64,000 nucleotides of DNA, from assembly GCA_017608505.1 (NCBI GenBank), contig JAFCFT010000003.1:234-64233 (forward strand), in the 5' to 3' direction. This DNA comes from Candidatus Parvarchaeota archaeon. Its GTDB lineage: Archaea; Nanobdellota; Nanobdellia; WJKC01. Under the pieces are notes generated by a model. It made no database searches, was not told the DNA's origin, and worked only from the letters and a program-made list of their open reading frames with translations. A program made the position numbers and the translations under genes. Below, in pieces: positions 56,059 to 56,231 of this stretch (position 1 is its first letter; each line of letters begins with the position of its first letter).

Positions 56059-56231
56059 GCGGGGGTGCCGGAGCCTGGTCAAACGGGCTGGACTAAGGAT
56101 CCAGTGGCTTAGTGCCTGCGCGCGTTCAAAACGCAGGCGGGGGAGGGGTGCCCTCCCCCATCCTAGCGCGTTACCTCCCCCCACCCGGCGAGGTGCGTGT
56201 TGGACTGCGAGTGAAAATCGCGTCCCCCGCA
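56059..56231 (+). tRNA. tRNA-Leu (type II, anticodon reads AAG) with an 87-nt GC-rich T-loop intron
   Basis: Acceptor GCGGGGG/CCCCCGC, 3-bp D stem CCG/CGG, anticodon stem CTGGA/TCCAG, loop CT-AAG-GA (56095-56097). Long variable arm TGGCTTAGTGCCTGC. T stem GCGCG/CGCGT is split after TTCAAA by about 56131-56217, which contains GGGGGAGGG/CCCTCCCCC and CGCAG/CTGCG helices. Mature length 86 nt. Confidence 0.7.
56214..56231. repeat. Direct repeat, left copy = 3' exon of tRNA-Leu plus 4 intron nt
   Basis: AAAATCGCGTCCCCCGCA, identical to 56765-56782. Confidence 0.85.

What the first reader, a model, noticed from the sequence alone, without database searches (positions are those of the whole stretch)
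56059..56231. tRNA-Leu with an 87-nt GC-rich T-loop intron and an A34 (AAG) anticodon
The 173-nt gene folds as a type II tRNA only if about 56131-56217 is excised from the T-loop. The excised segment is strikingly GC-rich in an AT-rich genome. It contains the helices GGGGGAGGG/CCCTCCCCC and CGCAG/CTGCG. The anticodon loop reads CT-AAG-GA, giving A at position 34. To my knowledge A34 is essentially unused in Archaea, which lack wobble inosine and use G34 instead. Either this tRNA is unusual in decoding or it is a decaying copy. The large structured intron could also have a function of its own.
Basis: partly seen in the sequence, partly recalled or inferred. Interest (0 to 1): 0.7.

Follow-up and report, generated by a model that had tools for sequence, protein, structure and literature searches.

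The report
Intron-split archaeal leucine tRNA, A34 anticodon
A leucine tRNA gene that looks functional, in a tiny DPANN (Nanoarchaeota-type) archaeon, is interrupted by an ordinary-type 87-base intron in its T-loop and carries an adenine at the wobble position, which reviews say archaea do not use but which several of its relatives share.

Summary
Removing 56131-56217 from 56059-56231 leaves an 86-nt class II tRNA-Leu with anticodon loop CU-AAG-GA.

**Intron.** It sits at T-loop position 59/60. The T stem stacks on a 4-bp helix (UUCA/UGAA). A 3-nt bulge holds the 3' splice site, and a 3x2 internal loop holds the 5' site. This is a relaxed bulge-helix-bulge motif. A second hidden tRNA in the window, tRNA-Ile(UAU) at 52758-52866, has an 18-nt intron at the same position with the same architecture. 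Introns at 59/60 are already known in archaea, so the intron is ordinary. It is also recent: the closest syntenic relative lacks it, and another has a D-loop intron instead.

**A34.** It is not decay. Both syntenic orthologs found through the neighbouring gene keep AAG. A pattern scan found AAG genes in Pacearchaeota, Woesearchaeota and two other contigs. Across eight sequences every stem pairs, and 12 of 23 pairs show compensatory changes. One Pacearchaeota contig carries Leu(UAG) and Leu(AAG) together. In the window CUU outnumbers CUC 448 to 53.

**Open.** Whether A34 stays unmodified or becomes inosine was not determined. The papers found report only one sporadic archaeal Leu(AAG), in Ferroplasma.

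The parts
56027..56035 (+). TTTAAAATA, a TATA-box-like element about 28 nt upstream of the tRNA 5' end
   Evidence: Read directly. Its role as an archaeal promoter is inferred from position and sequence only.
56059..56130 (+). 5' exon of tRNA-Leu(AAG): acceptor 5' strand, D arm, anticodon arm, long variable arm, T-stem 5' strand and T-loop positions 54-59
   Evidence: ARAGORN calls it after excision of the intron.
56095..56097 (+). Anticodon AAG (A34 at 56095) in the loop CUAAGGA
   Evidence: The same anticodon is present in the syntenic orthologs L010 and L013.
56131..56217 (+). 87-nt intron at tRNA position 59/60, 69% G+C: a closing helix plus two hairpins
   Evidence: It has no Rfam family and no similarity to the tRNA or to any held sequence.
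56125..56128 (+). 5' strand of the 4-bp central helix (U54 U55 C56 A57), which pairs with 56212-56215 (UGAA)
   Evidence: Minimum-free-energy fold.
56129..56131 (+). AAA holding the 5' splice site (56130|56131). It lies opposite AG (56210-56211), so it forms a 3x2 internal loop rather than a pure bulge.
56132..56136 (+). Inner helix CGCAG, which pairs with CUGCG at 56205-56209
56139..56159 (+). Intron hairpin 1: GGGGGAGGG-GUG-CCCUCCCCC
56163..56203 (+). Intron hairpin 2, an imperfect 16-bp stem
56212..56218 (+). UGAA (3' strand of the central helix) followed by the 3-nt bulge A-A-U holding the 3' splice site (56217|56218)
56218..56231 (+). 3' exon: U60, T-stem 3' strand CGCGU, acceptor 3' strand CCCCCGC and discriminator A73. 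No CCA is encoded.
56235..56240 (+). T6 run directly after the gene, a likely archaeal terminator
   Evidence: Read. The function is inferred.
56765..56782 (+). Second copy of the 18-nt tRNA 3' end AAAATCGCGTCCCCCGCA (first copy at 56214-56231). With the tRNA it brackets an RHH/ParE toxin-antitoxin pair (56289-56766).
   Evidence: Pfam assigns RHH_1 and ParE_toxin.
52758..52866 (+). Companion case: tRNA-Ile(UAU) with a canonical intron (52796-52812) and an 18-nt T-loop 59/60 intron (52835-52852) that has the same junction architecture

Best explanation
**What it is.** This is a functional chromosomal tRNA-Leu gene of a Nanoarchaeota-type (Woesearchaeota/Pacearchaeota-like) DPANN archaeon.

**Splicing (inferred).** The primary transcript carries an 87-nt intron at T-loop position 59/60.
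- In the precursor the T stem stacks on a 4-bp helix. That helix is formed by T-loop nucleotides U54-A57 and the intron's 3'-proximal UGAA.
- The 3' splice site lies in a canonical 3-nt bulge. The 5' splice site lies in a 3-nt strand of a small internal loop, closed by the intron's own CGCAG/CUGCG helix.
- This is a relaxed bulge-helix-bulge (hBH/HBh'-type) substrate. The archaeal splicing endonuclease (EndA) is inferred to cut it and an RtcB-type ligase to join the exons.
- The intron's G+C-rich hairpins most likely serve only to keep a long insert compactly folded, so that the splice motif forms.

**Decoding (inferred).** The mature 86-nt tRNA is charged by LeuRS through A73 and the long variable arm, independently of the anticodon. 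It reads Leu CUU by an A34:U Watson-Crick pair, and CUC at best weakly.
- In this lineage it occupies the place that tRNA-Leu(GAG) holds in other archaea.
- A tRNA-Leu(UAG) covers CUA and CUG.
- A34 most likely remains unmodified.

**History.**
- A34 is shared by several related DPANN lineages, so it is probably not a private mutation of this gene.
- The intron is a recent, lineage-specific gain.

**Shown versus inferred.**
- Shown: gene structure, splice motif, conservation and covariation, codon bias.
- Inferred: actual splicing, aminoacylation, modification state and decoding range.
For: **Gene and motif**
- Excision gives a complete class II tRNA-Leu(aag).
- Intronless orthologs score 53.5-56.6 bits on Rfam tRNA, against a gathering score of 29.
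- The unconstrained fold of the T arm plus intron gives exactly T stem + UUCA/UGAA + AAU bulge + inner helix (z = -4.44).
- The same architecture appears independently in tRNA-Ile at 52825-52859.
- Introns at 59/60 and relaxed hBH/HBh' motifs are documented (PMC4090602). DPANN EndAs carrying the L3 loop go with more disrupted tRNA genes (PMC5829648).

**A34 is conserved**
- L010 and L013 were found through the neighbouring PHP protein (71% and 56% identity), so independently of the anticodon. Both have AAG.
- L010 has a compensatory C52-G62 to U-A change. L013 has a covarying anticodon stem, CUAGC/GCUAG.
- A pattern scan of 185,579 species genomes found Leu(AAG) in a Pacearchaeota, a Woesearchaeota, an uncultured archaeon and one mis-binned contig.
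- In the alignment of 8 sequences, 100% of cells are paired and 12 of 23 pairs change on both sides. None of 500 shuffles reaches these values.

**Decoding context**
- L003 carries Leu(UAG) and Leu(AAG) on one contig.
- In the window CUU = 448 and CUC = 53. The C/U ratio for Leu is 0.117 against 0.287 in five other four-codon boxes (odds ratio 0.41, p = 2e-10).

**Expression signals and taxonomy**
- A TATA-like element lies upstream and a T6 run follows the gene.
- The best named homologs of the window's MCM protein are from Nanoarchaeia, Nanoarchaeota and Woesearchaeota.
Against: - There is no expression or splicing data.
- The 5' splice site is in a 3x2 internal loop, not a strict 3-nt bulge.
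- In the full 173-nt precursor the cloverleaf+BHB fold is 6.5 kcal/mol above the minimum-free-energy fold. The latter uses a competing hairpin, GCCUGCG/CGCAGGC. For comparison, the mature cloverleaf is itself 4.5 kcal/mol above its own minimum.
- No EndA, RtcB or deaminase gene lies in the window, so the enzymes are assumed.
- The full tRNA set of the genome is unknown. Absence of tRNA-Leu(GAG) is not shown.
- Four of the seven AAG sequences were retrieved with a pattern that required AAG. They show occurrence, not unbiased conservation.
- CUC depletion is not seen in the small samples from other AAG-bearing contigs. In the 51% G+C contig L002, CUC (24) exceeds CUU (17). That would fit I34 or another CUC reader there.
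- The L010 ortholog has A37 instead of G37.
Confidence: 0.8

Rival explanations
1. A34 is deaminated to inosine by a so far unrecognised (possibly horizontally acquired TadA-like) deaminase. The tRNA would then read CUU, CUC and CUA, as tRNA-Leu(IAG) does in eukaryotes and Lactobacillales.
For: - Most A34 tRNAs in nature are converted to I34 (PMC11066159).
- Leu(AAG) is one of the tRNAs to which bacterial TadA has expanded (abstracts of PMC8266599 and PMC13249217, listed).
- The 51% G+C relative L002 carries Leu(AAG) yet uses CUC more than CUU.
Against: - No A34-specific deaminase has been identified in archaea (PMC8007984).
- No HAE...PCxxC deaminase motif and no deaminase Pfam hit occurs in the 64-kb window.
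- The window's strong CUC avoidance fits an A34 that reads mainly U.
Confidence: 0.13
2. The locus is a decaying or inactivated tRNA-Leu copy. G34 mutated to A, and the T loop was destroyed by an inserted fragment, for example a scar of mobile-element integration.
For: - A34 is almost absent from archaeal tRNA sets (PMC6000648).
- The gene is an integration site: an 18-nt repeat of its 3' end brackets a toxin-antitoxin cassette.
- ARAGORN and Rfam do not call the unspliced gene.
Against: - Both exons are intact and all stems pair.
- A34 is retained in two syntenic orthologs and in other DPANN lineages, with 12 compensatory pairs in the alignment.
- The insert is flanked by a splice motif in the correct register. 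The same motif is found in a second tRNA of the window.
- Promoter-like and terminator-like signals are in place.
Confidence: 0.04
3. Besides being spliced out, the structured intron has a function of its own. It could act as a stable or circular small RNA, or as a disruptor of the attachment site that integrating elements use in the T arm and 3' end of tRNA-Leu.
For: - The intron folds far better than shuffled sequence (z = -4.44). At 69% G+C it is more G+C-rich than the other three introns in the window (read).
- tRNA-Leu genes of this group are recurrent integration or duplication sites.
- The hypothesis that introns protect attachment sites is published (Randau and Soll 2008, cited in PMC4090602).
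Against: - The intron is absent from the closest syntenic relative, and another relative has an intron at a different site. It is therefore not a conserved functional RNA.
- It has no Rfam family.
- It has no C/D boxes (read from the sequence), although Nop5 and fibrillarin are encoded in the window.
- A mobile cassette flanked by the tRNA's 3' end is present next to this intron-bearing gene, so integration occurred here. Whether it came before or after the intron cannot be told.
Confidence: 0.15
4. The G+C-rich insert is an assembly chimera and the real gene is intronless.
For: - Independent short contigs that carry the neighbouring gene stop right at the start of the tRNA (L001, L011, L012).
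- The insert's composition differs sharply from that of the genome.
Against: - A chimeric junction would not create a 4-bp helix, a 3-nt bulge and an inner helix in exact register, leaving a 7-nt T loop.
- The same design occurs in tRNA-Ile 3.3 kb upstream.
- A relative with no DNA available has a gap about 93 nt longer at the same place (one search compared).
Confidence: 0.02

Closest known systems
[quoted passage not shown] 2008; reviewed in PMC4090602; DPANN EndA context in PMC5829648)
   Same: - Same insertion point (59/60 is listed among known sites).
- Same logic: a 4-bp helix flanked by splice-site bulges and stacked on a tRNA stem.
- It can co-occur with other introns in the same gene, as in tRNA-Ile here and in L002.
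- Gain and loss are rapid between relatives.
   Different: - The 5' site lies in a 3x2 internal loop.
- The host is a mesophile-like, AT-rich DPANN archaeon rather than a member of the Thermoproteales.
- At 87 nt with two G+C-rich hairpins, the intron is much longer than the other three introns in this window (17, 18 and 38 nt).
tRNA-Leu(AAG) of Ferroplasma acidarmanus fer1 (PMC6000648)
   Same: An archaeal tRNA-Leu whose wobble base is A, in an archaeal backbone, interpreted as a G34-to-A34 substitution of tRNA-Leu(GAG).
   Different: - The Ferroplasma case is a single species with no effect on codon usage.
- Here AAG is shared by several DPANN lineages, including two orthologs found by synteny.
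- In the window it coincides with marked CUC avoidance.
tRNA-Leu(IAG) of eukaryotes (ADAT2/3) and of Lactobacillales (TadA) (PMC8007984; abstracts of PMC8266599 and PMC13249217 listed)
   Same: The gene-encoded anticodon is AAG, in the CUN box.
   Different: In those systems a dedicated deaminase turns A34 into inosine. No such enzyme is known in archaea, and none was found in the window.
Rare tRNAs with unmodified A34 (PMC11066159; Mycoplasma tRNA-Thr(AGU) and yeast mitochondrial tRNA-Arg(ACG) are from my own knowledge)
   Same: This is the likely working mode: A34 pairs best with U and only modestly with C. It is tolerated in a four-codon box of an AT-rich, reduced genome.
   Different: Those cases are in bacteria and organelles. 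Decoding by this archaeal tRNA has not been measured.
tRNA-Trp intron of Haloferax volcanii, which acts as a box C/D guide RNA (PMC4090602)
   Same: A long, structured archaeal tRNA intron in a genome that encodes Nop5 and fibrillarin.
   Different: The intron here contains no C (RUGAUGA) or D (CUGA) boxes.

Membership tests
Class II (long variable arm) archaeal tRNA-Leu | Complete cloverleaf: 7-bp acceptor stem, D stem, 5-bp anticodon stem with a 7-nt loop and U33, a paired long variable arm, and a 5-bp T stem with a 7-nt UUCRAAU loop | tested here: met
   ARAGORN calls it after excision. In the 8-sequence alignment 100% of cells pair and 12 of 23 pairs are compensatory. Orthologs score 53.5-56.6 bits on Rfam RF00005.
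Class II (long variable arm) archaeal tRNA-Leu | Leucine identity elements: discriminator A73 and a conserved variable-arm loop. LeuRS does not read the anticodon (background knowledge from Haloferax LeuRS studies). | tested here: met
   A73 is at 56231. The variable arm GGC-UUAGU-GCC is nearly invariant in the alignment. Actual charging cannot be tested here.
Strict archaeal BHB (hBHBh') intron | A 4-bp central helix flanked by two 3-nt bulges, one per strand, each holding a splice site | tested here: not met
   The central helix UUCA/UGAA and the 3' bulge AAU are present. The 5' AAA faces two unpaired nucleotides (AG), giving a 3x2 internal loop.
Relaxed BHB (hBH / HBh') non-canonical intron | At least one canonical bulge next to the 4-bp helix, flanking helices on both sides, and excision that restores a standard tRNA | tested here: met
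   The same design occurs in tRNA-Ile. Position 59/60 is a documented site (PMC4090602).
Relaxed BHB (hBH / HBh') non-canonical intron | Cleavage by a broad-specificity EndA and ligation by RtcB in the organism | not testable with these tools
   Neither gene is in the 64-kb window. DPANN EndAs with the L3 loop are described in PMC5829648.
I34 wobble system (TadA / ADAT) | Gene-encoded A34 in a three- or four-codon box | tested here: met
   The anticodon AAG is at 56095-56097.
I34 wobble system (TadA / ADAT) | A tRNA A34 deaminase in the genome, and inosine in the mature tRNA | not testable with these tools
   The window has no deaminase motif and no deaminase Pfam hit.
I34 wobble system (TadA / ADAT) | Absence of the synonymous G34 isoacceptor, tRNA-Leu(GAG) | not testable with these tools
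   Only partial data exist. L003 has UAG + AAG and L008 has CAA + AAG on single contigs. The scan left open at position 34 found AAG and UAG but no GAG on this backbone.
Box C/D sRNA-bearing tRNA intron | C/C' (RUGAUGA) and D/D' (CUGA) boxes in the intron | tested here: not met
   Neither motif occurs in 56131-56217 (sequence). Rfam gives no hit.
tRNA-gene attachment site of an integrated element | A direct repeat of the tRNA 3' part bracketing foreign DNA | tested here: met
   The 18-nt repeat at 56214-56231 and 56765-56782 brackets an RHH/ParE pair. The segment 56232-59745 is absent in L010.
tRNA-gene attachment site of an integrated element | An integrase gene within the bracketed segment | tested here: not met
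   Only RHH and ParE lie between the repeats. The two downstream ORFs are a 336-aa protein without a Pfam match and a molybdopterin oxidoreductase.

The most novel reading that the evidence does not exclude
A group of Woesearchaeota/Pacearchaeota-type DPANN archaea has replaced the universal archaeal G34 leucine tRNA by an A34 tRNA and converts it to inosine with a wobble deaminase not yet recognised in Archaea. That would be the first I34 decoding system in the archaeal domain. The weaker form, which I consider likely (about 0.6), is lineage-wide use of an unmodified A34 tRNA in Archaea.
Probability: 0.12. Interest if true: 0.8.

Novelty: new member of a known kind. Interest (0 to 1): 0.5.

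Why it matters
**A34.** Reviews state flatly that archaea have no tRNA genes with A at the wobble position and no A34 deaminase. The one reported archaeal Leu(AAG), in Ferroplasma, was treated as a recent accident.
- Here the same anticodon is retained, under clear structural selection, in several DPANN lineages. In this genome it goes with strong avoidance of CUC.
- That gives a natural archaeal system for asking how an A34 tRNA decodes. It may read as unmodified A, as in a few reduced bacteria and organelles, or through a still unknown deaminase.

**Annotation.**
- Standard tRNA finders miss this gene and a neighbouring tRNA-Ile(UAU), because of their T-loop introns.
- Such misses could contribute to 'incomplete' tRNA sets in DPANN genomes, as PMC5829648 suspected.
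- They can also create false ORFs, such as 52701-53633.

**Intron.** The intron itself adds only another example of a known class.

Tried and rejected
- **Unspliced gene.** ARAGORN, with and without its intron option, and Rfam at gathering and at E <= 10 do not call it. The best Rfam hit on the intron is Corio-PBP at 18.9 bits against a cut-off of 63.5, which is chance level.
- **Origin of the intron.** I tested whether it is a degenerate duplicate of the tRNA's own 3' or 5' part, suggested by GCGGGGG and GCGCGTT strings. The local alignment score is reached by 127-131 of 500 shuffles, so I rejected this. blastn-short against the window and all loci gave nothing.
- **Viral contigs.** Scans with the Leu(AAG) pattern and with the 5' exon-intron junction gave 0 hits.
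- **More distant synteny.** PHP homologs at about 41% identity (P0005, P0010, P0011) are not next to a tRNA-Leu. Homologs of the hexapeptide transferase gave only one close relative, on a 1.4-kb contig.
- **Exact-protein look-ups.** RHH, ParE and the 336-aa ORF (two start codons tried) are not on record, so I obtained no independent assembly of the locus. The contig of the 66% PHP relative has no DNA available.
- **Enzymes.** A motif and Pfam search of the window's predicted ORFs of 80 aa or more (a few short ones were not scanned) found no tRNA deaminase, EndA or RtcB.
- **Codon usage as a test of A34 versus I34.** The signal is clear in the window. It is inconsistent or underpowered in the other AAG-bearing contigs.
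- **L002.** A single excision does not give a clean tRNA. It needs two, about 105 nt in the variable arm and 66 nt in the T loop. I could not define a convincing BHB for its T-loop intron by eye.
- **Literature.** Six searches found no report of Leu(AAG) or any A34 tRNA in DPANN.
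Full report
**1. The observation**

The window is 34.9% G+C. The stretch 56059-56231 is 173 nt at 67.6% G+C. ARAGORN finds only tRNA-Glu and tRNA-Gln in the window. Rfam at gathering threshold adds an intron-bearing tRNA-Asn at 39647-39756 but nothing at 56059. A permissive Rfam scan of 55950-56350 gives only chance-level hits.

When 56131-56217 (87 nt, 69% G+C) is removed, ARAGORN calls a class II tRNA-Leu(aag). Its parts are:
- acceptor stem GCGGGGG/CCCCCGC;
- D stem CCG/CGG;
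- anticodon arm CUGGA-CUAAGGA-UCCAG;
- variable arm GGC-UUAGU-GCC;
- T arm GCGCG-UUCAAAU-CGCGU;
- discriminator A73.

A TATA-like TTTAAAATA lies about 28 nt upstream, and a T6 run follows the 3' end. The description is confirmed.

**2. The intron**

*Fold.* Folding the T arm plus intron (56120-56223) without constraints gives -56.2 kcal/mol, z = -4.44. The structure has these parts:
- the 5-bp T stem;
- stacked on it, a 4-bp helix between U54-A57 (56125-56128) and UGAA (56212-56215);
- a 3-nt bulge A-A-U (56216-56218) on the 3' strand;
- AAA (56129-56131) on the 5' strand, opposite AG (56210-56211);
- the helix CGCAG/CUGCG, closing two hairpins.

With cleavage after the second nucleotide of each 3-nt element, the splice sites fall at 56130|56131 and 56217|56218. 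That is tRNA position 59/60, and it leaves the 7-nt loop UUCAAAU.

*Class of motif.* The 3' half is a canonical bulge. The 5' half is a 3x2 internal loop. The motif is therefore relaxed (hBH/HBh'-type), not a strict bulge-helix-bulge.

*A second example in the window.* A screen for G+C-rich islands and a purpose-written scan for split T arms found a hidden tRNA at 52758-52866. After removal of a canonical 17-nt intron and an 18-nt T-loop intron it is tRNA-Ile(UAU). Its T-loop junction folds into the same design: T stem, UUCA/UGAG, UAU bulge, AAA opposite one A, and a CCC/GGG hairpin. Two independent occurrences in one genome argue strongly that this is a recognised splice substrate.

*What is already known.* Position 59/60 and relaxed motifs are established for archaeal non-canonical introns, with Nanoarchaeota and Crenarchaeota as rich sources (PMC4090602). 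DPANN lineages whose EndA carries the L3 loop show increased tRNA gene disruption and 'missing' tRNAs (PMC5829648).

*Caveat.* In the whole 173-nt precursor the cloverleaf+BHB fold is 6.5 kcal/mol above the minimum-free-energy fold, which uses a competing GCCUGCG/CGCAGGC hairpin. The mature cloverleaf is likewise 4.5 kcal/mol above its own computed minimum. I do not regard this as strong counter-evidence.

**3. Who carries it**

The window encodes a thermosome, IleRS, MCM, topoisomerase VI A and B, TBP, aIF2-beta, aIF1A, Nop5 and fibrillarin. The best named MCM homologs are from Nanoarchaeia, Nanoarchaeota and Woesearchaeota. The organism is a DPANN archaeon of the Woesearchaeota/Pacearchaeota radiation.

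**4. A34 is conserved, not decay**

*Unbiased evidence.* I looked for orthologs through the neighbouring gene, so independently of the anticodon.
- Homologs of the PHP phosphoesterase that ends 17 nt upstream of the tRNA were found and their contigs fetched.
- L010 (PHP 71% identical) has an intronless tRNA-Leu in the same place. Its anticodon loop is CUAAGAA, so AAG with A37. It has a compensatory C52-G62 to U-A change.
- L013 (PHP 56% identical) has a tRNA-Leu with anticodon arm CUAGC-CUAAGGA-GCUAG, so AAG on a covarying stem. It carries an intron of about 30 nt in the D loop. The contig ends before the T arm.

*Occurrence elsewhere.*
- A scan of 185,579 species genomes with GGTCAA-N6-8-GGACTAAGGATCC found four further Leu(AAG) genes. 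Three are intronless: a Pacearchaeota MAG, a Woesearchaeota MAG and a 30% G+C contig binned as 'Spirochaetes'. The fourth, in a 51% G+C uncultured archaeon, needs two excisions, one of them in the T loop.
- A metagenome scan left open at position 34 returned AAG twice and UAG once on this backbone, and no GAG.

*Structural selection.* Across the eight spliced sequences every stem position pairs. Twelve of 23 pairs show changes on both sides, and none of 500 shuffles reaches any of the observed values. The intronless orthologs score 53.5-56.6 bits on the Rfam tRNA model.

*Conclusion.* The 'decaying copy' reading is rejected. Four of the seven AAG sequences were retrieved with a pattern that required AAG. 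They document occurrence only. The unbiased evidence is the two syntenic orthologs and the scan left open at position 34.

**5. Decoding**

- The Pacearchaeota contig L003 carries tRNA-Leu(UAG) and tRNA-Leu(AAG) together. The two have different anticodon stems, so they are distinct isoacceptors. L008 carries CAA and AAG.
- Other tRNAs for codon boxes ending in U or C use G34 as usual: Asn(GUU) in the window, and Ala(GGC) and Val(GAC) in L009.
- In 35 long ORFs of the window the Leu codon counts are CUU 448, CUC 53, CUA 131, CUG 102, UUA 513 and UUG 223.
- With an independent ORF set, the C/U ratio is 0.117 for Leu against 0.287 for Val, Ala, Pro, Thr and Ser (UCN) pooled (odds ratio 0.41, p = 2e-10).

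This fits an A34 that pairs with U by Watson-Crick geometry and reads C poorly, as described for unmodified A34 (PMC11066159). The UAG isoacceptor would cover the rest of the box.

The signal is not reproduced in the small samples from L003 and L008. In L002 (51% G+C) CUC exceeds CUU. The modification state therefore remains open. The window contains no deaminase, and none is known in archaea (PMC8007984).

**6. History of the locus**

*The intron.* It is absent in L010 and replaced by a D-loop intron in L013. It is therefore a recent gain, typical of mobile non-canonical introns. It shows no significant similarity to the tRNA or to anything else held.

*Integration at the tRNA.*
- The 18-nt 3' end of the tRNA (56214-56231) is repeated at 56765-56782. 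The two copies bracket an RHH/ParE toxin-antitoxin pair.
- The whole segment 56232-59745 is missing in L010, where the tRNA abuts the homolog of window ORF 59746-60030 (44% identity).
- Partial 3' copies of tRNA-Leu also follow the genes in L003, L006 and L009.
- tRNA-Leu is therefore a recurrent integration site in this group. This makes the published idea that introns protect attachment sites (PMC4090602) worth testing here, but I have no evidence for it.

**7. Comparison with what is known, and novelty**

- *The intron.* It is another member of a known class: 59/60, relaxed BHB.
- *The A34 anticodon.* Surveys report that ANN anticodons are absent or nearly absent from archaeal genomes (PMC6000648, PMC8007984, PMC11066159). 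One sporadic Leu(AAG) is known, in Ferroplasma acidarmanus, derived from GAG and without any codon-usage effect (PMC6000648).
- *Literature check.* Six full-text searches found no report of A34 tRNAs in DPANN archaea.
- *What is new here.* The anticodon is shared by several related lineages under structural selection, and in this genome it goes with CUC avoidance.
- *Rating.* I rate it a new member of known kinds, with a moderately surprising decoding aspect.
- *Most novel reading not excluded.* An archaeal I34 system, which I put at about 0.12.

**8. Verdict**

The intron is ordinary for the lineage. The A34 wobble base is a genuine, lineage-shared exception to the archaeal G34 rule, and its modification state and decoding range need RNA-level data.

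Noticed in passing
window 52758-52866 (+): A hidden tRNA-Ile(UAU) with two introns: canonical at 52796-52812 and T-loop 59/60 at 52835-52852. ARAGORN and Rfam both miss it. It is swallowed by the spurious start of ORF 52701-53633, whose real start is probably the ATG at 52881 (a methyltransferase). tRNA-Ile(UAU) is itself rare in archaea, reported only for Nanoarchaeum and Korarchaeum in PMC6000648.
   Followed up: yes
window 56214-56231 and 56765-56782; 56289-56766: An 18-nt direct repeat of the tRNA-Leu 3' end brackets an RHH antitoxin and ParE toxin pair. The larger segment 56232-59745, which adds a 336-aa ORF without a Pfam match and a molybdopterin oxidoreductase, is absent from relative L010. 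It looks like the remnant of an element integrated into the tRNA gene. No integrase is present.
   Followed up: partly
L003:7461-7890; L006/L007 about 2671-2826 (- strand); L009:809-895: Partial copies of the tRNA-Leu T arm and 3' acceptor strand lie just downstream of the intact gene in three other DPANN contigs. In L006 they form two tandem 78-nt units. They are either integration scars or tandem duplications. They can mimic 'T-loop inserts' in naive scans.
   Followed up: no
L002 about 4401-4655 (- strand): The tRNA-Leu(AAG) of a 51% G+C uncultured archaeon appears to be split by two inserts: about 105 nt in the variable arm and 66 nt in the T loop. A hairpin in the 5' leader repeats the acceptor sequence GCGGAGG. 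The splice motifs are not resolved.
   Followed up: partly
L010:1526-1611: The syntenic intronless ortholog has A37 instead of G37 (anticodon loop CUAAGAA). This is unusual for a CUN-reading tRNA, which normally carries m1G37.
   Followed up: no
contig of P0003 (JGI 3300042731; no DNA available): The gap between the PHP gene and the 94-aa membrane-protein gene is 252 nt, against 159 nt in L010. That leaves room for an intron of about 90 nt in this relative's tRNA-Leu.
   Followed up: no
window 9503-14512 (+): A 1669-aa ORF for a PilB/T2SSE-type secretion ATPase, interrupted by intein-splicing and LAGLIDADG homing-endonuclease domains. Pfam reports three stretches of each, so there may be two or three inteins.
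   Followed up: no
window 39647-39756 (+): tRNA-Asn(GUU) with a 38-nt intron at the canonical position. Rfam finds it but ARAGORN does not.
   Followed up: partly
L001, L011, L012 (ends of contigs): Three independent short contigs that carry the PHP gene stop within about 20 nt of the start of the tRNA-Leu gene. This suggests an assembly-graph branch there, from a repeat shared between tRNA-Leu genes or from strain variation such as alleles with and without the intron.
   Followed up: no
window 43013-44365 (-) and 2441-3770 (+): A TIP49/RuvB-like AAA ATPase is encoded at 43013-44365. A Nop5 and fibrillarin pair is encoded at 2441-3770, so box C/D RNP machinery is present in this reduced genome.
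   Followed up: no
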